Origin: Chiloscyllium plagiosum
Lineage: Eukaryota
Direction: 5' to 3'
DNA: 35,887 nt
Assembly (NCBI RefSeq): GCF_004010195.1
Contig: NC_057749.1
Span: 17,744,203-17,780,089 of the forward strand
The notes below the pieces were generated by a model, which did not search any database, was not told the origin of the DNA, and was given only the letters and a program-made list of their open reading frames with translations. Position 1 is the first letter of the stretch. Each line of letters starts with the position of its first letter. Positions 195 to 34,974 of the stretch are shown piece after piece. Position numbers and translations under genes: made by a program.

Positions 195-256
195 TTTATT
201 GACTATGATTGGGGTTGTCAGCCTGCGCCAATCAGTGAGCCCTGGATGACGGATAT

Positions 257-2570
257 AAACAGGGGAAGAGGTAGGCGCCGCAGGGAGTGGAGTGCATCAT
301 TTCTCCCTCCAACTCTATTTTGATTTAGTCCCTACCCTCCCCTTCACTGTTTTGATCACACAGCACTGTCCTTTGATGTGAAGGGCAGTGCTTGTCACTG
401 GCCACCCGGGTGTTTTCCTATCTTCCTGGTGGTGGAAATTGAATAAAGATTGGTGCACTTTGTGTCTTTCACTGTGTCTCCCACCTGCACACACACACCA
501 TGGGTGCTGGGGATAAAATAAGCACTACCGCACTTAGGTGGTAGTGTGGGGGTTAAATTTAAAAAAGAAAAAAAAAGAAAAAGAAAAAAAATAAATAAAT
601 AAAAAGGAGTATCTTCTCCCTCCAATTCTATTTTGATTTAGTCCCTACCCTCCCCTTCACTGTTAAAAAAAAGGAAAAAAAAAGAAGAATAAAAAAAAAT
701 AATAATAAATAAACAGGGGAAGAGGTAGGCGCCGCAGGGAGTGGAGTGCATCATTTCTCCCTCCAACTCTATTTTGATTTAGTCCCTACCCACCCCTTCA
801 CTGTTTTGATCACACAGCACTGCCCTCTGATGTGAAGGNNNNNNNNNNNNNNNNNNNNNNNNNNNNNNNNNNNNNNNNNNNNNNNNNNNNNNNNNNNNNN
901 NNNNNNNNNNNNNNNNNNNNNNNNNNNNNAATAAATAAAAAAAAATAAAAAAAATACACAGGAGGGAGCACTTTGTGTCTTTCACTGAAAAAAAAAACAG
1001 GGGAAGAGGTGGGCGCCGCATGGAGTGGAGTGCATCATTTCTCCCTCCAACTCTATTTTGATTTAGTCCCTACCCTCCCCTTCACTGTTTTGATCACACA
1101 GCACTGTCCCTTGATGTAAAGGGCAGTGTTTGTCACTGGCCACCCAGGTGTTTTCCTATCTTCCTGGTGGTGGAAATTGAATAAAGATTCGTGCACTTTG
1201 TGTCTTCCACTGTGTCTCACACCTGCACACACACACACCATGGGTGCTGGGGAAAAAAAAAATAAGCACTAAAAAAAATAAATAAAATAAACAGGGGAAG
1301 AGGTGGGTGCCGCAGGGAGTGGAATGCATCATTTCTCCCTCCAACTCTATTTTGATTTAGTCCCTACCCTCCCCTTCACTGTTTTGATCACACAGCACTG
1401 TCCCTTGATGTGAAGGGCAGTGTTTGTCACTGGCCACCCAGGTGTTTTCCTATCTTCCTGGTGGTGGAAATTGAATAAAGATTTGTGCACTTTGTGTCTT
1501 TCACTGTGTCTCACACCTGCACACACACACCATGGGTGCTGGGGAAAAAATAAGCATTACCGCACTTAGGTGGTAGTGTGGGGGTTAAATTTTTTTAAAA
1601 AAGAAAAGAAAAAAAAAGAAAAAAAACTTAACCAGGGATTGGTGGGCGCCGCAGGGAGTGGAGTGCAAGAAGAAAAAAAAATAAACAGGGGAAGAGGTGG
1701 GTGCCGCAGGGAGTGGAGTGCATCATTTCTCCCTCCAACTCTATTTTGATTTAGTCCCTACCCTCCCCCTCACTGTTTTGATCACACAGCACTGCCCTTT
1801 AATAGATAGAGTAGACAGTCAGAAACTTTTTCCCCGGGTACAACAGAGTGTTACAAGGGGACATAAATTTAAGGTGAAGGGTGGAAGGTATAGGGGAGAT
1901 GTCAGGGGTGGGTTCTTTACCCAGAGAGTGGTGGGGGCATGGAATGCGCTGCCCGTGGGAGTGGTAGAGTCGGAATCATTGGCGACCTTTAAGCGGCATT
2001 TGGATAGGTACATGGATGGGTACTTAATCTAGGTTAGAAGTTCGGCACAACATCGTGGGCCGAAGGGCCTGTTCTGTGCTGTATTGTTCTATGTTCTATG
2101 TTTGTCACTGGCCACCCGGGTGTTTTCCTATCTTCCTGGTGGTGGAAGTTGAATAAAGATTCGTGCACCTTGTGTCTCTCACTGTGTCTCACACCTGCAC
2201 ACACACACCATGGGTGCTGGGGCAAAAATAAGCACTACCGTGGTTAGGCGGGAGTGTGGGGGTTTTAAAAAATAAAAATAAAAAGATAAAAAAGAAAAAA
2301 ATAAACATAAAAAAAGGGAATGAGGTGGGCTCCGCGGGGTATGGAGTGTTTTATCTCCCCCTCTAATTCTGTTTTGATTTAATCCCTATTCCCCCCCCAC
2401 CCCTTTCACTGTTTTGATCACTTCGGCATTGCCCTCTGGGAAGGGCACTGCTTGTCTCTGGACACTCGGGTGTTTCCTTTCTTCCTGGTGGTGGAATGTG
2501 ACTCATGTTTTCTGCACTAGTTGTTTCTTCGCTGTGTCCTATACCTACACACACACATGCACACTATATA
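257..2570 (+). mobile_element. Head-to-tail array of Tx1-clade non-LTR retrotransposon 3' ends (about 300-bp units plus shorter pieces, each A-tailed)
   Basis: Units start at about 257, 606, 709, 958, 995, 1288, 1630, 1682 and 2316. Most begin AAACAGGGGAAGAGGT(A/G)GG and encode a terminal peptide RWAPQGVECIISPSNSILI*; complete units end GGTAGTGTGGGGGTT plus an A-rich tail. The same 3' end is linked to a Tx1-like ORF2 at 13561-14195. Confidence 0.8.
1801..2100 (+). mobile_element. CR1 LINE 3' end nested in a Tx1 unit
   Basis: Peptide IDRVDSQKLFPRVQQSVTRGHKFKVKGGRYRGDVRGGFFTQRVVGAWNALP (CR1 ORF2 C-terminus) and a (GTTCTAT)n-type tail. Confidence 0.9.
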
Positions 2571-2700
2571 TAAAACCAGGAGATTAGAATCTCCTCAGTT
2601 GAAGACTGACTCCGAGCTGGCAAAAAAAAAATGTAAATAGGATTTTGTGTAACCAGGAGGTTCCGAATCTCCTCAGTTCAGGGGACTGACTCTGAGCTGG

Positions 2701-4393
2701 CTGCTGTTACAGTCAGTGTGTTACTGTTGGTTTCTACTTCTCTTTTTTTTGGAGGGGGAAACCTGATGCCTGAATTATTTAGTCAGTTTGTTAACTGCCA
2801 TTCCTCTTTTTTTTTTTCTTCTTTTTTAACTGCCATTCCTCTTAGTGAGGACTGATTGTTAAACTCCTGATGCACATCATGTGTTTCAGGTGAAACTCAG
2901 TTCTCATTAGGGGACTGTTGTTTCACTGGCTGGTTATAGCCTGTGTGTTACTCTTTTCTCTCCTTTTACTTTTGAGAAAAGGACAATGTGGATTTTTGGT
3001 AGCCTTTGGACTCTAGTTTTCTTTGTCCTTTCTTGTATGTGTCTTCACTTTTTATTGGTGTTTGGACTGAGCCCTTGTGGAAGACATACATTTCACCAGA
3101 GGAGCTGTTCCTATGGGGAGGCCTAGCCCTCTGAAGATTGAACACCTGTGTGTGTGCTGGGAGGTGAGCAGTTGCTGTATCCTGGAGTTTGGCACACAGA
3201 CCTCTCCTTCAGGAGTGGATCAAACCCCTGCGAGTTAATTGCACCTGTACTATGTTCCTGTGAGTGGGCCTGGTTTTCCAAGGCTGGGCCAGGGCTCCAT
3301 GGAGACTGACTGCCTGTGTGCTGTGGGATGTGCATTTGCTGCCTTCAGGAGTGGACTCTGCCCTTGGTTGTGGACTCTGTTTTTAGCAACAGACTCTGCT
3401 GTTTGGAGTGGACCCCATTTCTGACAATGCACATTGTATACTGGAGTGGACTCTTCCTGGAAATGGATTCTATATTTTGAAGACTGTATAGAGTTGGACT
3501 GTGTACCAGAAAGGACTCTGTTTTTTGATAATTAACTGTATTGTGGTGTTTCCTGGGTCTATCACTTGCACTGTCTTGTGTGTCCCTGGGTCTGGTAGGC
3601 CTTACTGTGAGCTGGGAGGCTCATGGGTCGTCCTGAAAGCTGTCACCCCGAGAGCCGGAGGGTGGGTAGGCCATCCTGTGAACCTGAAGGTTGGTAGGCT
3701 GTCCTGAAAGCTGGTGGGTGGTATGCCACCCTGATGCCAGTCCCCCAAGAGCCAGATGGTGGGTAGGCTGTTCTAAGCGCTATCGTCCTAAGAAGGGGTA
3801 TTCGGGACGGGCTGTCCTAAAGGTGTGTCAGAGCAGCTGAGAGCCAGAAAGTGCGTAGGGGTGGGCTGAGATCCAGAAGGCTTGTGGGCTACCCTGCAAG
3901 CTGTCATCCCAGGGAAGGAGATGGGCTGTCCTAGAGGTGGCTGGATGGTGTACCAGGATAGCCCATTGGCTGGATGGTGCATCGGGGTGGGTGAGAGCCC
4001 AATGGTACATAGGGGCAGACCGAGAGCCAGAAGGCAGGTAGCCGTCCTGACTGCTGTCACCCCGGGCGGGTACCGGGGCAGGCTGCCCTAGAGGTGGTCG
4101 AAAGGTGTGTCAGGGCAGACCGAGAACTGGAAGGGGCATGGGGTGGACTGGGAGCGGGAAGGTGCGTGGGGGCGGGCTGCCTTAGAGTGGTCGGAAGGTG
4201 GGAGGGATGGGGTCTTGCTGGGTCTGTATTGTATGCACTGTTTATGTAACTGGATTAGCTTTTTATGTACAAATGTCGCTGTCTTTTATATGTGGAACTG
4301 GGATTTGAGGTTTGTCCTCATCTCCCTGTAAACTGGTTGAACGGTAGGGTTTGGAGCCTAGCTTTGCTGCTCTTCTCCCTTGTATATAATTAT
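2701..4393 (+). other. Unclassified 1.7-kb insert inside the LTR, bounded by 125-bp direct repeats
   Basis: 2576-2700 and 4394-4518 are near-identical. The interior has recurring GGAGTGGACTC motifs (about 3210-3500), degenerate GC-rich repeats (GGCTGTCCT(A/G).../CCGAGAGCC, about 3620-4200) and a T-rich end. Confidence 0.5.
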
Positions 4394-4632
4394 CCAGGAG
4401 ATTAAAATCTCCTCAGTTAAAGACTGACTCCAAGCTGGCCAAAAAAAAATGTAAATAGGATTATGTGTAACCAGGAGGTTCTGAATCTCCTCAGGTTAGG
4501 GGACTGACTCTGAGCTGGTATACAGTGCATGTGTAAATAAAGGGAGACTTGGTGATGGGATACCAGCCTCTGTGCAATTATTTCATTTCATATCCTGGAT
4601 TTCCCCAAAGTCTTTATATGTAAGGATGATAT

Positions 4633-4947
4633 GGGTGGCATGATGGCTGTGGTTAGCACTGCTGCCTCACAGCATCAGGGACCTGAGTTTGATTCCAGCC
4701 TTGGGCGACTGTCTGTGTGGAGTTTGCACATACTCCCATGTCTGCGTGAGTTTCCTCCGGGTGCTCCGGTTTCTTCCCACAATCCAAAGATATGCAGGTT
4801 AGGTGAATTGGCCATGCTAAATTTCCCATAGTGTTCAGTGTATTAGTCAGAAGGAAATGGGTCTGGGTGGGTTACTCTTCGGAGGGTGGGTGTGGACTGG
4901 CTGGGCCGAAGGGCCTGTTTCCACACTGTAGGGAATCTAATCTAATC
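4633..4947 (+). mobile_element. HE1-type tRNA-derived V-SINE
   Basis: A/B-box head (TGGTTAGCACTG...GAGTTTGATTCC), core GTCTGTGTGGAGTTTGCACA...GGTGCTCCGGTTTC, CR1-like tail ending (TCTAA)n; five copies in the window. Confidence 0.9.
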
Positions 4948-11522: not shown

Positions 11523-11529
11523 TTTGAAG

Positions 11530-11822
11530 CAGTGGTTAGCACTGCTGCCTCACAGCGCCAGAGACCCGGGTTCAATTCCCGACTCGGGCGACTGTCTGTG
11601 TGGAGTTTGCACATTCTCCCCGTGTCTGCGTGGGTTTCCTCCAGGTGCTCTGGTTTCCTCCCATAATCCAAAAATGTGCAGGTTAGGTGAATTGACCATG
11701 CTAAATTGTCCGCAGTATTAGGTGAAGGGGTAAATGTATGGCTCTGGGTGGTATACGCTTCGGCGGGTCGGTGTGGACTTGTTGGGCCGAAGGGCCTGTT
11801 TCCACACTATAAGTGATCTAAT
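11530..11822 (+). mobile_element. HE1-type V-SINE
   Basis: CAGTGGTTAGCACTGCTGCCTCACAGCGCCAGAGACCCGGGTTCAATTCC head; ends GGGCCTGTTTCCACACT...TCTAA. Confidence 0.9.
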
Positions 11823-11844
11823 ATCGAGAGCAGGGTAAGTCTTT

Positions 11845-12100
11845 TAGTTGGATAGAGGTCTTAAGGATAGTGGAATCAAAGATTATGGGGATAAGGCAGG
11901 AACAGGACACTGATTGAGGATGAGATGGAAATGTGTTGCTGGAGAAGCGCAGCAGGTCAGGCAGCATCTAGGGAACAGGAGAATCGATGTTTCGGGCATT
12001 AGCCCTTCTTCAGGAAAGAGGATGATCAGCCATGATCATAATGAATGGTGCAGGCTCGAAGGGCAGAATGGCCTACTCCTGCACCTAATGTCTATTGTCT
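11845..12100 (+). mobile_element. CR1 3' UTR fragment interrupted by a short Penelope-derived insert (11924-12017)
   Basis: CR1 tail GCAGGCTCGAAGGGCAGAATGGCCTACTCCTG. The insert matches 28660-28745 and is flanked by GAGGATGA at 11916-11923 and 12018-12025. Confidence 0.75.
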
Positions 12101-13325: not shown

Positions 13326-13560
13326 GAAACACCTCATTGAGGACATAACCAGCAGAGTTACTAGTTTAACCAAGATAATCAGATTAGTTGAGGATGGTGA
13401 TAATCCTGAATGTTAGGATTGTAATGCTCTCATGGCTTTTGCTGGAGTAATATATCCCAAACTGCTTCATGGCTGCATGATCAAACTAAACTTAACAAGA
13501 CAATATTCAGGCAGGTAGCCAAAAGCTTGGCTGCTGAGATAGATTTTGAGCATTGTTTTA

Positions 13561-14195
13561 TTTTTTTTTCTTTTTTTGGAAAACACCCGAGTGGCCAGTG
13601 ACAAACACTGCCCTTAACACTCCTTTTTTTTTTCTTTAACCCCCACACTACCACCTAAGTGCGGTAGTGCTTATTTTATCCCCAGCACCCATGGTGTGTG
13701 TGTGCAGGTGGGAGACACAGTGGAAGACACAAAGTGCACCAATCTTTATTCNNNNNNNNNNNNNNNNNNNNNNNNNNNNNNNNNNNNNNNNNNNNNNNNN
13801 NNNNNNNNNNNNNNNNNNNNNNNNNNNNNNNNNNNNNNNNNNNNNNNNNNNNNNNNNNNNNNNNNNNNNNNNNNNNNNNNNNNNNNNNNNNNNNNNNNNN
13901 NNNNNNNNNNNNNNNNNNNNNNNNNNNNNNNNNNNNNNNNNNNNNNNNNNNNNNNNNNNNNNNNNNNNNNNNNNNNNNNNNNNNNNNNNNNNNNNNNNNA
14001 TGGCCAGTTTGGCCAGGCCCAGGGGCAGACCCACGAGGAGGTCTTCAGACCTGCCCTCCTTCCTCCGTACCGGGTGCCCAAAGATCAGGAGCGTGGGACT
14101 GAAGTGCAGCCAAAAATAGAGGAGAAGGTTTTTAAGGAAATCAAAAAGGGAGTGCAAACGCCCACACCCAATATAGACGTGGTCCACGGACTCCA
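13561..14195 (-). mobile_element. 5'-truncated Tx1-clade non-LTR retrotransposon (ORF2 C-terminus, 3' UTR, poly(A)) with a second short unit
   Basis: Peptide ESVDHVYIGCGRLHSLFDFLKNLLLYFWLHFSPTLLIFGHP...LGLAKLA (end of the L1/Tx1 CCHC knuckle). The 3' UTR matches the 257-2570 units. A 15-bp TSD TTGAGCATTGTTTTA at 13546-13560 and 14196-14210 ties both sides of the N-gap together. Confidence 0.85.
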
Positions 14196-15064
14196 TTGAG
14201 CATTGTTTTAAAGGAAGAAAGAAAGATTGTGATAGGCTGGAAGGTTTAAGGAAGCAATTCCAGGGCTTAGGAATTCAGCAGCTAAAGGCGCTGTCACCAT
14301 TAATGGTGGAGCCGTGTAAAACTGTGGGGGCACTCGAGTGACCCAGCAATGTAAAACTGGGGGAGGTGTTTGAGTGACCAGAATTAGAGGAACACAGATA
14401 TCTCCAGATGGTTGTAGAGTTGGAGGAGGTTACAGAGAAAGGGCTGAGGCCATTGGGGGATTTGATAAGAAGGTTAATGGTATTAAAATGGGTGGGATGT
14501 TAATGTGCACTGGGGAGACATGTGAACCTGGTTCAAGTTGGGGCATGGCAGAGTTTTGGATCTGTTCAGCTTTACAGTGTAGGAGTGCAGTTAGGAGACA
14601 ACTGGATCCACTTACAAACGTACTTTGTTAATTTTCCAATCTATAAATGCTCAGTAATGATAGAGATTTTCTCTCCTTTGTGGGATCTGATCTCAGTGAC
14701 ACCTTTAGTTTGCAAATTTGGCAGTTGTTTGTATGTGCAAATTGTCAATCTACATTGCATTTCTAAAGGGTTTCTGCCCTCTGGGACTAGCTGTCATTTC
14801 TCGTTATTGCAATTTCTGACACATAATCTATCTCAGAGACATCCTTAATAGAGTCAGTAGGAAACAATACTGTGTCTGTTGTTGCCTGCAGTATATTTCT
14901 GGGGGTATTTGGCACAGATGGTGGCAGACTTGTTTCAAATATTATACCTGGCCTGACGATTTCCCAGGAGAACATTAAGCATCCAGCATTTTTGACGAGA
15001 CATGAACAGAAGTATGGTTTTATTGAGAGAATGTCTTTCCTGGCACCAGTTCATGCCATGAAAT

Positions 15065-21512: not shown

Positions 21513-21724
21513 AGCGTTGGGTGTCTCTGGAGAAAGCGACCCAAATGGGGAGAAGGATGAGAAGGATCAGGTGGATGTGTAACACAGACTTCACTCTGCG
21601 TGAGTGCTACGTTTTTCCTGTTTAACCTGAATTTCCTTCCTGTAGTTAACTGATGAATGTGGAATGAAGAACCCCTGCTTCAGGATGTTTGGTCAGTCCC
21701 TATGTTCAAATCTCGTGTTACAAG

Positions 21725-23791
21725 TGAAATAATTCCACAGAGGCCTGAATCCTGTTACCGAGTCCCCTTTTATTTTCATGGGGAGAGTCCTTGACACTGA
21801 TCCAGCTCCCTCAGACCCAGCTCTGAGTGAGCAGAACCTCTGACACTCCTGTTTTTAAATTTTTTTTATTTTTCTTCACAAATCCCCAGTTTTTTTTTTT
21901 AACCCCCACACTACCGCCTAACCGCAGTAGTGCTTATTTTACCCCCAGCACCCATGGTGTGTGTGTGCAGGTGTGAGACACAATGACAGACACAAGCTGC
22001 ACAACCCTTTATTCAATTTCCACCACCAGGAAGATAGGAAAACACCCGGGTGGCCAGTGACAAACACTGCCCTTCACATCACATCAAAGGGGCAATGCTG
22101 ACACTCCTGTTTTTGTTTTACTCCTGTTTGTTTGTTTATTTATTAATTAATTAATTAATTTATTTATTTATTTTCTTACACTCCTGATTTTTTTTTAAGG
22201 GCAATGCTGAGACTCCTGTTCATTTTTTTTTCTTTTTTTTATATTAACCCCCACACTACCGCCTAACTGCGGTAGTGCTTATTTTTCCCCAGTACCCATG
22301 GTGTGTGTGTGCAGGTGTGAGACACANNNNNNNNNNNNNNNNNNNNNNNNNNNNNNNNNNNNNNNNNNNNNNNNNNNNNNNNNNNNNNNNNNNNNNNNNN
22401 NNNNNNNNNNNNNNNNNNNNNNNNNNNNNNNNNNNNNNNNNNNNNNNNNNNNNNNNNNNNNNNNNNNNNNNNNNNNNNNNNNNNNNNNNNNNNNNNNNNN
22501 NNNNNNNNNNNNNNNNNNNNNNNNNNNNNNNNNNNNNNNNNNNNNNNNNNNNNNNNNNNNNNNNNNNNNNNNNNNNNNNNNNNNNNNNNNNNNNNNNNNN
22601 NNNNNNNNNNNNNNNNNNNNNNNNNNNNNNNNNNNNNNNNNNNNNNNNNNNNNNNNNNNNNNNNNNNNNNNNNNNNNNNNNNNNNNNNNNNNNNNNNNNN
22701 NNNNNNNNNNNNNNNNNNNNNNNNNNNNNNNNNNNNNNNNNNNNNNNNNNNNNNNNNNNNNNNNNNNNNNNNNNNNNNNNNNNNNNNNNNNNNNNNNNNN
22801 NNNNNNNNNNNNNGGATCTTTCTATGCATCCTATTAATTCACATTCCAAAATTACTGGTTATACTCTTTCAAGTCTGTCCTAGTCTTGCTTATCTCTAAG
22901 GACTGCTTGAATTCTGTTATTCATTGTGGTCCATGTGCTATCTCTCTGAAATTCTGTTCTTCCTCTTACATTTTCAACTGTCCCAATTATAAATTTAAAA
23001 CATACAAAAGACAGTTGATTTGAACTAGCTTCTGTAAGAGTAGTCGTATTAATTTCCCAATATCAAGTTAGTTGTACTTTTTAATTAATAAGTTATGAAC
23101 AATCTATTTCATTCAGGACATGCCAGGCCTGGGTCTAGTTAACATTTACATCTAGATTTAAATGTTTATTCCCTAATGCTTCTATTATACTTTAGTTATA
23201 TATGTATCTATAATTATGTTGAAATCTATTTCTATGATTATCTGAAGAATCTTTAACGAAAACCTATTTCTTAATATTGTGAATAACGTCAAAGAAATAA
23301 CTGATTACTACAAAATAACCTTAGCTGTTGTTTCATAGCTGTTTAATGAGTTAGGCTGACTGGTTTATGGGTTGAGATTTACACCCCTTGTTCGAACTGG
23401 TGATGCTAACGAATGGGACAACACCCTTTCATTAATGAGGCTAGAATTAATCACATGTCGTATTTTAATGAACTTGTGTCTTATCCTTAGATATCCTCTT
23501 AGCAAAGCATCTCGGAAAGTCACTTGTAGGGTCTCCTATTTAGCTTGTTCAAAGGTACCATTAAGTTTCGCTTAAATTTTTTTTTCCACCACCAGGAAGA
23601 TAGGAAAACACCCGGGTGGCCAGTGACAAACACTGCCCTTCACATCAAAGGGCAGTGCTGTGTGATCAAAACAGTGAGGAGGAGGGTAGGGACATCACTC
23701 CTGTTTATAGCTGTCAACCAGGGCTCCCTGATTGGATCAGGTTAACAGCCTAATCATACTGTATGAGGCTGACCTCATTCCAATCGCTACA
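21725..23791 (-). mobile_element. Solo LTR (about 225 bp net) split at its TATA box by nested insertions
   Basis: Minus strand starts TGTAGCG (23791), then CCAATCAGGGAGCCCTGG, TATAAACAGGAGTG and AATAAA, and ends ATTATTTCA (21725). A 5-bp TSD ACAAG lies at 21720-21724 and 23792-23796. Confidence 0.88.
21855..23695 (-). mobile_element. Second stack of Tx1-clade 3' ends and A-rich tails inside the LTR
   Basis: Units at about 21890-22098, 22222-22326 and 23577-23695. The target motif ACTCCTG(TTT) repeats at 21841-21854, 22099-22112, 22120-22129, 22178-22186, 22208-22220 and 23696-23706. Confidence 0.85.
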
Positions 23792-25692: not shown

Positions 25693-25998
25693 TAGATTAG
25701 ATTAGATTCCCTACGGTGTGGAAACAGGCCCTTCAGCCCAACCAGTTCACATCGACCCTCCAAAGAGTAACCCACCCAGACCCATTTCCCTTTGACTAAT
25801 GAACCTAACACTATGGGCAGTTTAGCATGCCCAATCCACCCTGACCTGCACATCTTTGGACCGTGGGAGGAAACCGGAGCACCTGGAGGAAACCCACACA
25901 GACACGGGGAGAATGTGCAAACTCCACACAGACAGTCGCCCAAGGCTGGAATCGAACCTGGGACCCTGGTGCTATGAGGCAGCAGTGCTAACCACTGA
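25693..25998 (-). mobile_element. HE1-type V-SINE inserted in a short Penelope-derived remnant (about 25633-26032)
   Basis: (ATTAG)n tail and full reverse-complement match to 4633-4947. The flanks GTGATGAAGGATCACCAGACCCGAAAC...CACAGATGCTGCCAGA and TGCTGAACTTTTC read as one interrupted element. Confidence 0.88.
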
Positions 25999-28619: not shown

Positions 28620-28824
28620 CGAGGAGAAAGTGAGGTCTGCAGATGCTGGAGATCAGAGCTGAAAATGTGTTGCTGGAAAAGCACTGCAGGTCAGGCAGCA
28701 TCCAGGGAACAGGAGAATCGACATTTCGGGCATAAGCCCTTCTTGGGCTTATGCCCGAAACGTCGATTCTCCTGTTCCCTGGATGCTGCCTGACCTGCTG
28801 CGCTGTTCCAGCAACACATTTTCA
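28620..28824. mobile_element. Fold-back Penelope-derived element
   Basis: Near-perfect inverted arms at about 28660-28739 and 28745-28824; 13-bp TSD TCTCAGTCCTAAT at 28607-28619 and 28825-28837. Confidence 0.85.
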
Positions 28825-28955
28825 TCTCAGTCCTAATGCCAGGCCACTACTTTACTGAAAATAAATTTTCCCAAAAGTTTGTTGCAACCTTTTCTAAACG
28901 CTATTACTATCATTGCTACTCTGAACTTCCTTCAGTGAGATTCTAAATTTTTTTT

Positions 28956-29203
28956 TAGATTAGATTTCTTACAGTGTGGAAACAGGCCCTTTGACCCAAC
29001 AAGTCCACACCGACCCCTCTGAAGAGCAACCCACCCAGACCCATTCCCCTACATTTACCCCTTCACCTAACACTACGGGCAATTTAGCATGGCCAATTCA
29101 CCTGACCCGCACATCTTTGGACTGTGGGAGGAAACCGGAGCACCCGGAGGAAACCCACACAGACACGGGGAGAATGTGCAAACTCCATACAGACAGTTGC
29201 CTG
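28956..29203 (-). mobile_element. HE1-type V-SINE, 5'-truncated
   Basis: TTAGATTAGATT tail; reverse-complement match to 11585-11822. Confidence 0.88.
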
Positions 29204-30279
29204 CCAATTCATTTCAGATTTGAAACATCAACTTAGCTTCTCTCTCCACAGGCACGGCCAGACCTGCTGAGTTATCTCCAACACTTTCTGCTTTTATTTC
29301 AGATTTCCAGTTTCTGCAGCATTTCATTTTTATCCCACTCTATTGTCACCCTGGTTTAGAACTCTAAATCTTTCACCTTAATTCCTCAGCCTTTCGGTCC
29401 AAAATCCTCACCGCTTCCCCAGGGTTCATTCATTTAAATCAATCTCAATAAAATTTATTTCTCTTGCCCCCAACTAATCCTCTCATAGAACCCAATGCAG
29501 CTGAAAAACACTGAAAGACTGTTATAGATTTGAAAAACTTGAAATTATAAAAGCAAAAATGAGATTCTTTGCAAATAGTCAGAAGAAACATTTATTCAGT
29601 ATGTAAGACAGCAGTCAGATGCTTTTCATCAGAAAGTGACAGAAATTAGATGAAGAATTCTCATTGTATCTGATGGTAATGACAACAGTTATTACCCTCG
29701 AGAGCTGCTACTTCACAATACCTTACCAGGCCTGATGTTTCAAATGGAACCAAATGCAAATTGCAGAACACAGTTAATTTATGATCAATCAGCAGATTTT
29801 ACAAACAGAGAGACACCTTGAAGTGGATGTAACAATTTAAATTGTTCCTAAATGTTACAAGGGGGATGTAATATATGAGACTATATCAAATAGGAATTGA
29901 GGGGAAGCTGGTCAGAGAATCCCAATAAGTTCCAACCCAGAATCACCCCATTCTGAACATCATCGACATCAGCCTGCATTTCTATAATCACCGAGAAATG
30001 CTGGGAATCTGAAATTGAAACAAAACGCTGGAGAAACTCAGCAGGTCCAGCAACATCCATGGAGAGAGAAATTGTGTTAAAGTTTCAAGTCCAATGACTC
30101 TTCTCCAGAACTGATAGATTTTCTATAAAACTGCTTCACAGGTTTCTCTATATTGACTTGTCTCAGTCCTCCCTCTCTCTGTCTCTGTCTCTCTCTGTCT
30201 CTATCTCTCTCTCTCCCTGACACTGACTGGTTTCTCCCTCTTTCCTTCCCCCCATTCCTCGACCTCCCCCCAACTCTCA

Positions 30280-30749
30280 GGGTGATATCTGTACACTGAC
30301 TGATGTCTGTCAGTCCCCTTCTCTCTTAGGGAGATATCTGTACACTGACCGGTGTCTCTCAGTCCCCTCACTCACTCAGGGAGGTATCTGTACACTGACT
30401 GGGGTCTCTCAGTTCCCTCACTCACTCAGGGAGGTATCTGTACACTGACTGGTGTCTCTCAGTCCCCCACTCACTCAGGGAGGTATCTGTACACTGACTG
30501 GGGTCTCTCAGTTCCCTCTCTCTCTCAGGGAGGTATCTGTACACTGACTGGTGTCTCTCAGTCCCCTCACTCACTCAGGGAGGTATCTGTACACTGACTG
30601 GGGTCGCTCAGTTCCCTCACTCTCTCAGGGAGATATCTGTACACTGACCAGTGTTTCTCAGTCCCCTCACTCACTCAAGGAGGTATCTGTACACTGACTG
30701 GGGTCTCTCAGTTCCCTCACTCTCTCAGGGGGATATCTGTACACTGACT
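30280..30749. repeat. 50-bp minisatellite, about 9 units
   Basis: Unit GG(T/G)GTCTCTCAGT(C/T)CCCTCACTCACTCAGGGAGGTATCTGTACACTGACT; a degenerate continuation follows at about 32184-32265. Confidence 0.95.
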
Positions 30750-32183
30750 GTGAAACTGAATAATTACTTCACATCAGTCTTCATGGTGGAAGACATGAGT
30801 AATATCCCAAACATTCAGGAGAGTGAAGGGGCAGAGCTGAGTATGGTGGCCATCAGCAAGGAGAAGGTGCTAGAAAACCTGAATGGCCTGTAGGTGGATA
30901 AATCACCTGGACCAGATGGACTACATCCCAGAGTTTAAAAGGAGATAGCTAAGGAGATAATGGAAGCATTAGTGGTGATCTTTCAGGAATTGCTAAAATC
31001 AGGGACAGTCCCAGAGGACTGGAAAATTGGTAATGTGACACCCCTGCTTCAAATGGGAGTAAGGTAAAGATGGAAAATTACAGACTGAGTAGCCTAACCT
31101 CAGTTGTGGGTAAGATCCTGAAATCCATTGTGAAGGATGAGATTTCTGAATACTTGGAGGTGTATGGCAAAATAGGGCAAAGTCAGCTTGGTTTCAGTAA
31201 GCTGACAGGTTAGGAGTGTGGGCAAAGAAGTGGCAGATGGAATAGAACATGACCTCACACTTTACCATGTTGTATTCCATCTGTGTGAGGTCATGTTCTT
31301 TGGTCAGAAGAATAGAAGCATGGACTATGTTCTAAATGGGGAGAAAATTCAGAAGTCTGAAGTGCAAAGAGACTTGGGAGTGCTAATCCAGGACTCTGTC
31401 AAAGTAAACCTGCAGGTTGAATCAGTAGTGGGGAAGGCAAATGCAATGTTGGCATTTATTTTGCGAGGACTTGAATATAAAAGCAGAGGTGTATTTCTGA
31501 GGCTCTATAATCTCTGGTCAGACCACATTTAGAGTATTGTGTGCAGTTTTGGGCCCCATATCTCAGGAAGGATATACTGGCCCTGGAGTGTGTTCAGAGG
31601 AGGTTCACAAGAATGGTTCCAGCAATGAGAAGTTTAACATATGAGGAATGTTTGAGGATTTATACTCGGTGGAGTTTAGAAGGATGAGAGGGAATCTAAT
31701 GGAAACATACAGAACACTGAATGGCCTGGACAGAGTAGATGTTGGGAAGATGTTTCCATTCTTTAACTTAAAAATGTGTTGCTGGAAAAACACAGCAGGT
31801 CAGGCAGCATCAAAGGAGCAGGAGAATTGACGTTTCCGGCATGAGCCCTTCTTCAGGAATCATCCTCCAAGATGTTTCCATTGGCAGGAGAGACTAAGAC
31901 CTGGGGCACAGCCTCAGAATAAAGGGAAGACCTTTTAGAACGGAGATAAAGAGAAACGTCTTCAGCCAGAGAGCGGTGAATCTATGGAATTCATTGCCAA
32001 AGGCCGCTATGGAGGCCAGGTGATTGAGTATATTTAACACTGAGATAGATAGGTTCTTGATTGTAAAAGGGATCACGGTTATGTGGTGAAAGCGGGGTGA
32101 AATTTATCAGCCTTGATTGAATGGCGGAGCAGACTTGATGGGCTGAATAGCCTAATCTCTGCTCCAATGTCTTTTGGTCTTAT
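30750..32183 (+). mobile_element. Decayed CR1 LINE (ORF2 with internal RT deletion, stops, 3' UTR)
   Basis: LNNYFTSVF...KSPGPDGLHPRV, then a jump at about 31200 to KKWQME, QRDLGV, KANAMLAFI and RRMRGNLMETYR; ends TCTTTTGGTCTTAT. Confidence 0.9.
31761..31868 (-). mobile_element. Short Penelope-derived insert within CR1
   Basis: Matches 28660-28745; minus CCTGAAGAAGGGCTCATGCCGGAAACGTC; 14-bp TSD AAGATGTTTCCATT at 31747-31760 and 31869-31882. Confidence 0.85.
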
Positions 32184-33119: not shown

Positions 33120-33510
33120 GCGTGGAGGTGCCAGTGTTAGACTGGGGTGGACTCCTTGGTAAAAACCAGGGCTGCAGATGCTGGAAACCAGAGTCTAGAC
33201 TAGAGTGCTGCTGGAAAGGCACAGCAGGTCAGGCAGCATCCGAGGAGCAGGACAATCGACGTTTCGGGCAAAAGCCGTGAGGAAATATTTCAATCATTCC
33301 TGATGAAGGGCTTTTGCCCAAAACGTCGATTTTCCTGCTCCTCGGATGCTGCCTGAACTGCAGTGCATTTCCAGCAGCACTCTAGTCTAGACTCTGGGTT
33401 GGACTCCTTACCTGATGGTTAACTGATGAAGGAGCAGTGCTCTGAAAGCTAGTGCTTCCAAATAAACCAGTTGGACTATAATCTGCCATTGTGTGATTAT
33501 TACCTTTGTT
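33120..33510. mobile_element. Nested Penelope-derived elements: a fold-back element (33158-33399) inside a second family
   Basis: Inverted arms at about 33188-33276 and 33309-33397; TGGACTCCTT duplicated at 33148-33157 and 33400-33409; the outer parts match the 8114-8304 family. Confidence 0.8.
33420..33455 (+). ncRNA. Minimal hammerhead-ribozyme-like motif
   Basis: CTGATGA-A-GGAGC-AGT-GCTCT-GAAA-GC-TA: conserved core boxes around a paired stem II with a minimal stem III, as known for Penelope-like elements. Activity is untested. Confidence 0.55.
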
Positions 33511-33538: not shown

Positions 33539-34974
33539 TGTGGATCAGTATCAGGGACCAATCACTGTGGATCAGTATCAGTGACCAATCACTGTGGATC
33601 AGTATCAGTGACCAATCGCTGTGGATCAGTAACAGTGACCAATCATTGTGGATCAGTAACAGGGACCAATCATTGTGGATCAGTATCAGTGACCAATCAC
33701 TGTGGATCAATATCAGTGACCAATCGCTGTGGATCAGTATCAGGGACCAATCCCTGTGGATCAGTAACAGGGACCAATCGCTGTGGATCAGTATCAGTGA
33801 CCAATCGCTGTGGATCAGTAACAGTGACCAATCGCTGTGGATCAGTATCAGTGACCAATCGATGTGGATCAGTATCAGTGACCAATCACTGTGGATAAAT
33901 ATCAGTGACCAATCACTGTGGATCAGTAACAGTGACCAATCGCTGTGGATCAGTATCAGTGACCAATCACTGTGGATCAGTATCAGTGACCAATCACTGT
34001 GGATCAGTAACAGTGACCAATCACTGTGGATCAGTAACAGGGACCAATCGCTGTGGATCAGTAACAGGGACCAATCGCTGTGGATCAGTATCAGGGACCA
34101 ATCCCTGTGGATCAGTAACAGGGACCAATCACTGTGGATCAGTAACAGGGACCAATCACTGTGGATCAGTAACAGTGACCAATCGCTGTGGATCAGTAAC
34201 AGTGACCAATCACTGTGGATCGGTAACAGTGACCAATCGCTGTGGATCCGTATCAGTGACCAATCCCTGTGGATCAGTATCGGTGACCAATCGCTGTGGA
34301 TCAGTATCGGTGACCAATCGCTGTGGATCAGTATCAGTGACCAATCACTGTGGATCAGTAACAGTGACCAATCGCTGTTGATCAGTATCAGTGACCAATC
34401 GTTGTGGATCATTATCAGTGACCAATCGCTGTGGATCAGTATCGGTGACCAATCGCTGTTGATCAGTAACAGTGACCAATCGCTGTGGATCATTATCAGT
34501 GACCAATCGCTGTGGATCAGTAACAGTGACCAATCGTGTGGATCATTATCAGTGACCAATCGCTGTTGATCAGTAACAGTGACCAATCGCTGTGGATCAG
34601 TAACATGACCAATCACTGTGGATCAGTATCAGTGACCAATCGCTGTGGATCAGTATCAGTGACCAATCACTGTGGATCATTATCAGTGACCAATCGCTGT
34701 TGATCAGTAACAGTGACCAATCACTGTGGATCAGTATCAGTGACCAATCGCTGTGGATCAGTAACAGTGACCAATCCCTGTGGATCAGTATCAGTGACCA
34801 ATAGCTGTGGATCAGTATCAGTGACCAATCCCTGTGGATCATTATCAGTGACCAATCGCTGTTGATTAGTAACAGTGACCAATCGTTATGGATCAGTATC
34901 AGTGACCAATCGCTGTGGAGCAGTATCAGTGACCAATCGCTGTGGATCAGTATCAGTGACCAATCATTGTTGAT
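33539..34974. repeat. 27-bp minisatellite, about 53 units
   Basis: Unit TGTGGATCAGTA(T/A)CAG(T/G)GACCAATC(A/G/C)C in direct tandem with no unique spacers. Confidence 0.97.

What the first reader, a model, noticed from the sequence alone, without database searches (positions are those of the whole stretch)
205..4585. Tx1-clade retrotransposon apparently targeting the TATA box of an LTR family (locus 1)
Seen: an LTR is opened at GATATAAACAGG (254-263) and filled by about 9 same-orientation, A-tailed pieces of one 3' end. Most junctions restart with AAACAGG(G/A)G, and LTR sequence resumes at TATAAAACCAGGAG (about 2569). A related LTR 20 kb away is split at the same point. Known: Tx1-clade elements are often sequence-specific (Xenopus Tx1L in a DNA transposon, Keno in U2 snRNA genes, Dewa in tRNA arrays, Kibi/Koshi in microsatellites). 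Inference: this family uses an LTR core promoter as its target, a parasite-on-parasite system that could borrow the promoter and disable the LTR. I do not recognise it as described.
Basis: partly seen in the sequence, partly recalled or inferred. Interest (0 to 1): 0.85.

Follow-up and report, generated by a model that had tools for sequence, protein, structure and literature searches.

The report
LINE that homes into LTR promoters
A very abundant jumping gene of the Tx1 type repeatedly lands at one exact spot, right at the TATA box of a small LTR family, building head-to-tail arrays there; this kind of aimed insertion is known, so it is a clear new example and not a new principle.

Summary
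At 254-266 an LTR is opened just behind its TATA box. It is filled with nine same-strand, A-tailed pieces of one LINE 3' end. A second LTR on the minus strand (23,709 to 21,715) is split at the same point.

The LINE is Tx1-clade. A natural copy has an APE endonuclease and an RT, and it is 52% identical over 622 residues to Xenopus Tx1L ORF2.

Targeting is real:
- 14 of 27 independent genomic copies of the 3' end lie in this LTR at the same site and in the same orientation.
- 7 of 20 LTR copies are occupied there.
- 23 arrays share the site, with an 8-15 bp target duplication.
- 9 of the 27 copies are dispersed with their own duplications, so this is a strong preference and not an absolute one.

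Array units come from different RNAs yet share array-specific 5' breakpoints.

Bases 2650-4383 are a second, non-coding retroposon with an LTR-derived head that uses the same site.

Promoter borrowing is plausible but not shown. Kojima 2015 already reports crocodilian Tx1 families aimed at LTR retrotransposons. This scan noted Tx1-like homing in two other genomes, but not this case.

The parts
206..259 (+). 3' part of the LTR's U3, with CCAAT (228-232) and TATAAA (254-259). The first ~50 nt of the LTR are missing or unrecognisable here.
   Evidence: 206-263 matches an intact LTR copy (L068) at positions 54-111, 83% identity. Motifs read.
259..2570 (+). Head-to-tail array of nine pieces of a Tx1-clade LINE 3' end (end of ORF2 plus 3'UTR). 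Each piece follows a copy of the target duplication (ACAGGGGA) and carries an A-rich tail. Seven pieces begin at the same LINE position. Four stop short of the 3' end. The last piece (2315-2556) is a diverged relative at 77% identity.
   Evidence: (D3-D5, D7, D10)
839..929 (.). Assembly gap (N) inside the array.
1800..2098 (.). Unrelated dispersed repeat inserted into the eighth unit. The unit lost about 14 nt there. This shows the unit is old.
   Evidence: LINE positions 1059 and 1074 flank it
2571..2649 (+). Short LTR-type head (ACCAGGAG...GAGCTGGC), then A10 and 19 further bases. Read as a head-only retroposed piece.
   Evidence: Repeated at 4389-4467 (D12).
2650..4383 (+). Second retroposon, called E2 here. 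It has a 48-nt head derived from the LTR just behind the TATA box, then about 1.7 kb of non-coding body. In this copy it is cut off about 100 nt before its own AATAAA/poly(A) end.
   Evidence: 2,350 first-look candidates. Searches show its 3' end plus A tail abutting the same target motif in other loci.
4384..4518 (+). Second copy of 2565-2700 (91% identical). Read as a long duplication made when E2 was inserted, or carried in with it.
   Evidence: D12
4519..4585 (+). 3' end of the LTR, with AATAAA at 4536-4541 and terminal CA at 4584-4585.
   Evidence: 4532-4585 matches LTR positions 183-236, 87% identity. Read.
21715..23790 (-). Second LTR of the same family, split at the same point. U3 with TATAAA at 23,709-23,704. 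LINE pieces at 23,693-23,583, 22,326-22,248 and 22,081-21,903, plus tail-only units. Each follows ACAGGAGT(GTCAG). LTR 3' part at 21,853-21,715. It includes an N gap (22,811-22,327) and about 0.8 kb of unexplained sequence.
13546..14209 (-). Dispersed, 5'-truncated copy of the same LINE outside any LTR. It has its own 14-bp target duplication (AAAACAATGCTCAA at 14,209-14,196 and 13,559-13,546). Its 3' end carries tail - GGAGTGT - short LINE piece - tail, that is, a stretch of an array copied along with it.

Best explanation
A young, very abundant Tx1-clade LINE strongly prefers one site in a ~236-bp LTR of a Ty3/gypsy- or retrovirus-like element. Its ORF2 carries an APE endonuclease, an RT and a C-terminal Cys/His motif.

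Proposed mechanism:
1. The endonuclease nicks the bottom strand inside or at the end of the TATA box (...GATAT/AAACAGGAG...).
2. The T-ended primer starts reverse transcription on the poly(A) tail.
3. The top strand is cut 8-15 bp further on, behind GTGTC. The stretch (AT)AAACAGGAGTGTC is therefore duplicated.
4. Each insertion regenerates the site, so it is hit again. Head-to-tail arrays grow in this way.

The units come from different RNA molecules. Their 5' ends are joined with the help of the resident copy, which gives array-specific breakpoints. The RT often skips along or between templates, which gives pieces that lack the 3' end and pieces with internal deletions. Read-through RNAs of arrays are themselves copied to new places.

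A non-coding retroposon (E2) with an LTR-derived head rides the same machinery to the same site.

Shown: clade, site, orientation, duplication, re-use of the site, independent templates.
Inferred: the exact nick position, the homology-guided 5' joining, that the endonuclease alone reads the site, and any use of the LTR promoter.
For: Clade:
- Pfam finds APE and RT domains.
- 52% identity over 622 residues to Tx1L ORF2, E 7.9e-204.
- Human L1 ORF2p scores only 191 bits.

Abundance: 14,109 first-look candidates for the ORF2 end and 5,990 for the RT part. These are lower bounds.

Site:
- 14 of 27 independent 3'-end loci lie in the LTR.
- 4 of 9 loci in a sample chosen by protein lie in the LTR.
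- 3 of 6 long copies lie in LTR arrays.
- 7 of 20 LTR copies are occupied at the same nucleotide, and 11 of 20 are intact.
- In 23 arrays the LTR runs to positions 106-117 on the left. It resumes at 99-106 on the right in 15 of the 17 arrays where the right side is seen.
- L036 is a clean single insertion with the duplication AACAGGAGTGTC.

The target is a true LTR:
- TG..CA ends.
- 5-bp duplications at L064 and L068.
- Integrase_H2C2 (E 1e-7) and rve just upstream of one copy.

Re-use of the site by independent templates:
- Identity within arrays is 0.951 (60 pairs) against 0.947 between arrays (2,286 pairs). The permutation test gave 361 of 2000.
- Tails differ between units.
- In locus 1 one unit is 77% identical and another is interrupted by a later repeat.

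Shared breakpoints: 66 of 133 units sit at their array's modal start, against a permutation mean of 30.3 and maximum of 37.

Template skipping: internal deletions are seen in L033.

Read-through RNAs: window locus 3 and L006.

Independent reads: contigs from two other runs show U3-TATA-duplication-LINE joints and tail-ACAGGAG-LINE joints.
Against: - 9 of 27 copies are dispersed. Their 10-16 bp duplications mostly start with ATA(A/G)A-like letters and have no CAGGAG. The endonuclease may therefore read little more than a TATA-like word, and the LTR preference may need something else, such as RNA-target pairing, chromatin or U3 context.
- Arrays also form at other words, for example AATCATGTC in L019 and ATCCAGGAAAGT in L016. 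Array growth therefore does not need the LTR word.
- The samples are the best-scoring, youngest copies, not a random draw. Counts of units rest on BLAST pieces, so some units are counted as two.
- Occupied LTRs carry ATAAA more often than empty ones (13 of 18 against 4 of 11), but this is not significant (one-sided P 0.065).
- No nicking data, no RNA data and no long-read check.
Confidence: 0.8

Rival explanations
1. Each array is made in one integration event. After copying one RNA, the RT copies the single-stranded target duplication and jumps to the poly(A) tail of the next RNA, so a concatemer of pieces separated by the duplication is laid down at once. Targeting of the first hit is still needed.
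For: - Arrays occur at non-consensus words such as L019.
- Units of an array are of similar divergence and come from different templates.
- Template skipping is frequent.
- Tail-only units are common.
Against: - Locus 1 holds a 77% piece and a unit broken by a later repeat, next to 95-97% units. At least some growth was therefore spread over time.
- The model does not explain why 66 of 133 units stop at the array's own breakpoint, unless a resident copy guides them.
Confidence: 0.2
2. One insertion per LTR, later multiplied by unequal crossing-over or replication slippage, so the arrays say nothing about repeated targeting.
For: - Units share 5' breakpoints within arrays.
- One pair of units in L013 is 100% identical with identical tails.
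Against: - Units within an array are no more alike than units of different arrays (0.951 against 0.947; 361 of 2000 permutations).
- Tails and 3' ends differ between neighbouring units.
Confidence: 0.08
3. The LINE-like units belong to the LTR element itself, either as part of its consensus or picked up by the retroviral RT at strand transfer. On this reading they are not insertions of a LINE.
For: - The junction lies near the U3/R border.
- The long LINE copies and E2 carry LTR-like stretches.
Against: - 11 of 20 LTR copies are uninterrupted.
- The insertions are flanked by duplicated LTR sequence.
- The same LINE has an ORF2 of its own and dispersed copies with their own duplications.
- The site lies about 20 nt ahead of the predicted start of R. 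This last point is inference.
Confidence: 0.03
4. The array is a misassembly of a short-read scaffold.
For: - N gaps lie inside both window arrays.
- No contig of the runs laid spans the stretch.
Against: - The same architecture occurs at 23 places.
- Joints of the same type occur in contigs of independent runs.
Confidence: 0.04

Closest known systems
Tx1L of Xenopus laevis (Tx1 clade), inserted at one site of the DNA transposon Tx1D
   Same: The ORF2 layout is the same, with 52% identity over the endonuclease and the first half of the RT. Both insert at one fixed site of another mobile element. Repanas 2007 (PMC1950540, passages read) reports that Tx1L endonuclease nicks almost only at its expected site.
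   Different: The target here is an LTR, not a DNA transposon. A third of the sampled copies are dispersed. The hairpin that carries RDGH in Tx1L is three residues shorter and different here (GPGVGV in the alignment; the loop's role is taken from PMC1950540).
Crocodilian Tx1-8_Crp and Tx1-4_AMi; Tx1-Mar with SINEU in Mariner-N4_AMi (Kojima 2015, PMC4494074, passages read)
   Same: [quoted passage not shown] Tx1-Mar and the non-autonomous SINEU share one target transposon, as the LINE and E2 do here. That paper's working rule (one sequence in more than 20% of flanks) is met here, with 14 of 27.
   Different: The host lineage is different. The main text of that paper gives no site within the LTR, and its supplement could not be read. 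Here the site is at the TATA box. The passenger's head comes from the target LTR and not from an snRNA.
R2/R1-type site-specific LINEs that depend on transcription of their target
   Same: The insertion sits where a host promoter could transcribe it. Target-derived sequence in the RNA could help homing. This idea is discussed in PMC4494074.
   Different: Co-transcription is not shown here. The endonuclease type differs from R2. This comparison is partly recalled and was not tested.
Zepp of Chlorella, a LINE that piles up in its own copies (recalled; a Trebouxiophyceae RT appears as hit P0070)
   Same: Clusters of 5'-truncated copies are stacked at poly(A) tails.
   Different: The relationship is distant (31% identity). 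No LTR target is involved. Details are recalled and were not checked.

Membership tests
Tx1 clade of non-LTR retrotransposons | APE-type endonuclease at the N-terminus of ORF2 | tested here: met
   Exo_endo_phos, E 1.1e-10, residues 17-222 of L056:3845-5743
Tx1 clade of non-LTR retrotransposons | LINE-type reverse transcriptase following the endonuclease | tested here: met
   RVT_1 in two adjoining open stretches of L056, E 1.7e-15 and 2.6e-13
Tx1 clade of non-LTR retrotransposons | RT/ORF2 groups with Tx1L rather than with L1 or other clades | tested here: met
   52% identity and 98% coverage to YTX2_XENLA, E 7.9e-204, against 191 bits to human L1 ORF2p. No formal tree or RTclass1 run was made.
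Tx1 clade of non-LTR retrotransposons | C-terminal Cys/His motif in ORF2 | tested here: inconclusive
   C-x2-C ... H-x4-C is read in the translations. Pfam found no family in the last 150 aa of L056. Related proteins carry PF13966.
Tx1 clade of non-LTR retrotransposons | ORF1 upstream of ORF2 | not tested
   An open stretch ends just before ORF2 in L058 and L056. It was not searched against families.
Target-specific LINE (rule of Kojima 2015: one sequence in more than 20% of flanks) | A single sequence family at the flanks, at a fixed site and orientation | tested here: met
   14 of 27 and 4 of 9 loci. 23 arrays at LTR positions ~103-117.
Target-specific LINE | The endonuclease nicks the target sequence specifically | not testable with these tools
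   Needs an in vitro nicking assay.
LTR of an LTR retrotransposon or endogenous retrovirus (the target) | TG..CA ends, short target duplication, promoter and poly(A) signals, integrase-bearing interior next to it | tested here: met
   TG..CA ends and CCAAT/TATAAA/AATAAA motifs. 5-bp duplications at L064 and L068. Integrase_H2C2 E 1e-7 and rve E 4.8e-5 within 1.5 kb upstream of one LTR. PBS and PPT were not examined.

The most novel reading that the evidence does not exclude
This may be a three-party system. The LTR supplies the promoter: CCAAT and TATA stay directly upstream of whatever is inserted.

The Tx1 LINE and a non-coding passenger (E2) both land 20-odd bases ahead of the LTR's start site. 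Both carry LTR-derived sequence at or near their 5' ends. New copies would therefore be transcribed from the host LTR. Their 5' ends would be rebuilt by pairing with the target, so that homing, transcription and 5'-end repair are all provided by one 15-bp site.

The A-rich tails ending in ATAAA would at the same time give the displaced LTR body a substitute TATA-like word.
Probability: 0.3. Interest if true: 0.65.

Novelty: new member of a known kind. Interest (0 to 1): 0.5.

Why it matters
This locus gives a precisely defined natural target for a Tx1-type LINE: about 15 bp at a TATA box. There are hundreds to thousands of occupied and empty copies of that target in one genome.

That is good material for three questions:
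- How APE-type endonucleases gain sequence preference.
- How 5' ends of LINE insertions are joined. The units come from independent templates yet share breakpoints.
- How non-autonomous passengers arise from the target's own transcripts.

It also matters for annotation. These arrays break short-read assemblies and would be mislabelled as satellites or as LTR variants.

Tried and rejected
- Long 'open frames' reported for copies were mostly N gaps. Natural gap-free copies were used instead.
- A first alignment of the LINE's 5' region with one LTR copy was not above shuffles: score 19, shuffle mean 17.6. With a gentler gap cost, 6 of 9 LTR copies gave z of 3 or more and 3 gave z 0.9-2.4. I keep this only as a lead.
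- Tandem duplication as the source of the arrays is rejected.
- 5' breakpoints fixed by microhomology with the duplication are rejected. Arrays with the same duplication (L018, L033, L036, L014, L015) have different breakpoints.
- Retroviral strand-transfer capture is rejected (see rivals).
- Sequencing runs: no RNA holder was listed. The one RNA raw-read run laid gave 0 reads, which is no test. One 120-nt contig of run X2 covers 165-284 but has fewer than 31 letters beyond the junction, so I do not count it as bridging.
- Papers: Christensen 2000 (PMC85248) is not held. The supplement of PMC4494074 is not readable, so where in the LTR the crocodilian families insert remains unseen.
- Searches for a shark or LTR-specific description: 6 papers, none on this; 1 paper, PMC4494074. 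Repbase and Dfam could not be consulted.
- Earlier notes of this scan: none for this genome. Two on Tx1-like homing in other genomes did not change my reading.
Full report
WHAT IS IN THE WINDOW

The window lies in a 3.56-Gb animal genome. At 228-232 there is a CCAAT box and at 254-259 a TATAAA. Directly behind it come ACAGGGGA and then sequence of a LINE.

BLAST against a natural copy of that LINE finds nine same-strand pieces between 263 and 2556. One more short piece at 958-988 was seen by eye. Each piece follows an A-rich tract plus ACAGG(G/A)G (family D5, seven copies), and each is followed by an A-rich tail.

- Seven pieces start at the same LINE position.
- Four stop before the normal 3' end and still carry a tail.
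- One unit is split by an unrelated 299-bp repeat (1800-2098).
- The last piece (2315-2556) is only 77% identical.
- An N gap (839-929) hides part of the array.

On the minus strand a second copy of the same LTR is split at the same point (TATAAA at 23,709-23,704; LTR 3' part at 21,853-21,715). It holds pieces that each follow ACAGGAGT(GTCAG).

A third copy of the LINE (14,209-13,546, minus strand) is not in an LTR. It has its own 14-bp target duplication.

THE LINE

The repeated unit is the end of ORF2 (the stop codon lies about 75 nt into the unit) plus a ~220-nt 3'UTR. The family is very large: 14,109 first-look candidates for the ORF2 end and 5,990 for the RT part. Both are lower bounds. 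Long copies are mostly broken by N gaps in this assembly.

A gap-free natural copy (L056) has an open 633-aa stretch starting with the endonuclease. It contains Exo_endo_phos and RVT_1. It is 324/622 = 52% identical to the Xenopus Tx1 149-kDa protein from residue 1. Human L1 ORF2p scores only 191 bits. It is therefore a Tx1-clade element, close to Tx1L itself.

In the alignment, the hairpin that carries RDGH in Tx1L is three residues shorter and different here. According to Repanas 2007 (PMC1950540, passages read) this hairpin reaches the DNA downstream of the nick.

THE TARGET

I fetched 20 copies of the LTR, chosen by similarity to its 3' part.
- 11 of 20 are uninterrupted. They show a ~236-bp LTR with TG..CA ends, CCAAT, TATAAA and AATAAA. 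Two of them (L064, L068) have clear 5-bp target duplications.
- 4 of 20 hold LINE pieces.
- 2 of 20 hold the 3' end of a second retroposon (E2).
- 1 of 20 holds a tail-only insert.
- 2 of 20 have protease-like coding sequence fused at the site.

All of these sit at the same nucleotide.

One LTR lies 1.5 kb behind integrase remains (Integrase_H2C2 E 1e-7; rve E 4.8e-5). It is therefore a true LTR of a Ty3/gypsy- or retrovirus-like element.

An initiator-like word (CTCA+1CTC) lies 30 nt behind the TATA box. This puts the insertion site between the TATA box and the predicted start of R. That placement is inference from motifs, not from RNA data.

HOW STRONG THE PREFERENCE IS

- Of 27 independent loci found with the LINE 3' end (the window's own two loci and one duplicate left out), 14 lie in this LTR, 4 are arrays whose ends fall outside the fetched DNA, and 9 are dispersed.
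- In a second sample chosen by the ORF2 protein (9 independent loci), 4 are in the LTR, 1 is dispersed, 1 is an array with unseen ends, and 3 are cut by N gaps.
- Three of six long copies lie in LTR arrays.
- Across 23 arrays, the LTR runs to positions 106-117 on the left. On the right it resumes at 99-106 in 15 of the 17 arrays where that side is seen; the other two are BLAST tiling effects. The orientation is always the same.
- L036 is a clean single insertion flanked by AACAGGAGTGTC.
- Even with 50,000 assumed LTR copies, 14 of 27 has P about 5e-28.
- The nine dispersed copies, L040 and window locus 3 have their own 10-16 bp duplications, mostly starting ATA(A/G)A-like. The enzyme's basic taste is therefore a TATA-like word, and the LTR site is a favoured case of it.
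- Occupied LTRs keep ATAAA more often than empty ones (13 of 18 against 4 of 11), but this is not significant.

HOW THE ARRAYS GROW

- Within arrays, 66 of 133 units share the array's own 5' breakpoint. Permutation gives a mean of 30.3 and a maximum of 37 in 2000 trials.
- Arrays with the same duplication have different breakpoints. Microhomology with the target therefore does not set the breakpoint.
- Units of one array are no more alike than units of different arrays (0.951 against 0.947; 361 of 2000 permutations). Their tails differ. They are therefore not tandem duplicates but copies of different RNAs.
- The reading that fits both facts is repeated target-primed reverse transcription at the regenerated site, with the new cDNA joined at its 5' side through pairing with the resident copy. 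This step is inferred.
- A single event with template jumps remains possible for some arrays. Locus 1, with a 77% piece and a unit broken by a later repeat, needs at least several events.
- Pieces lacking the 3' end, and pieces with internal deletions (L033), show that the RT often skips.
- L040 ends 25 nt behind an internal AATAAA, so early polyadenylation also contributes.
- Window locus 3 and L006 are dispersed insertions that carry a tail, the LTR-type junction word and a further piece inside their own duplication. Read-through RNAs of arrays therefore serve as templates.

THE SECOND HALF OF THE FINDING (2565-4585)

This half is not plain LTR. Bases 2650-4383 belong to a family with 2,350 first-look candidates. 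Its unit starts with a 48-nt head homologous to the LTR just behind the TATA box. It continues with about 1.7 kb of non-coding sequence and ends in AATAAA plus poly(A).

In 14 copies examined, the unit follows:
- an LTR U3 in 6 copies,
- a LINE tail in 3 copies,
- the tail of another such unit in 4 copies,
- another repeat plus a tail in 1 copy.

Its A-tailed 3' end abuts the same target word in L028, L065, L075 and L089, and in the four copies that follow another unit's tail.

Two copies outside LTRs begin 2-5 nt behind the initiator-like word of the head. This would fit RNAs started by the LTR promoter, but n = 2.

I read E2 as a non-autonomous passenger of the same machinery. The pairing resembles SINEU with Tx1-Mar in crocodilians (PMC4494074).

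PROMOTER BORROWING

This is not shown. Of 15 informative long copies:
- 5 begin at one fixed word directly behind the duplication; one of these (L087) sits right after the LTR U3,
- 9 run on upstream into LINE 3' sequence,
- 1 starts about 6 nt upstream of that word, with an unrelated flank.

The long copies also hold a ~60-nt stretch resembling the LTR's R region (z of 3 or more with 6 of 9 LTR copies).

These are leads only. No RNA evidence could be obtained.

KNOWN OR NEW

Aimed insertion is typical of the Tx1 clade. [quoted passage not shown] Its supplement could not be read. My searches found no description of this family or of a TATA-box site. Repbase and Dfam could not be consulted.

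I file it as a new member of a known kind, with well-defined extra features:
- the site at the core promoter,
- arrays of independent units with shared breakpoints,
- a passenger with a head derived from the LTR.

Noticed in passing
L079 (reverse strand) joined to L058; also L080-L095: Long copies of the LINE start with a 65-nt stretch that duplicates part of the element's own 3'UTR. A ~60-nt stretch resembling the LTR's R region follows, then about 2.5 kb of GC-rich ~200-bp repeats before ORF1/ORF2. In 9 of 15 copies the sequence runs on upstream into ORF2/3'UTR sequence without a tail, as if the RT had switched between homologous stretches.
   Followed up: partly
L070 and L078 (LTR copies): Protease-like coding sequence of an LTR element is fused directly to the target word (ACAGATA..AACAGGAG) in place of U3. 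This could be a deletion or a captured RNA piece. It is unexplained.
   Followed up: no
window 22,812-23,575 (minus strand): About 0.8 kb of AT-rich sequence of unknown origin follows the tail of the first LINE piece inside the second LTR array, up to an N gap.
   Followed up: no
L015: A tRNA-like or SINE-like piece follows the junction word CCGGAGTGTC inside an LTR array. RNAs other than the LINE and E2 therefore seem to be copied into these sites.
   Followed up: no
alignment, query residues ~198-213: The endonuclease hairpin that carries RDGH in Tx1L is three residues shorter and different here (GPGVGV). It is a candidate for the changed target choice.
   Followed up: partly
window 33,539-34,965 and 30,276-30,750: A 27-bp satellite of about 53 copies (91% matches) and a 50-bp tandem repeat of 9.5 copies.
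   Followed up: no
window 4,646-4,947; 11,529-11,830; 25,695-25,997; 29,039-29,201: Copies of a dispersed SINE-like repeat in both orientations, 85-91% alike.
   Followed up: no
window 28,656-28,828 and 33,185-33,400: Near-perfect hairpin repeats (84-92 nt arms, 93-94% complementary, 5 and 32 nt apart). They belong to a family that also has copies at 11,922 and 31,765.
   Followed up: no
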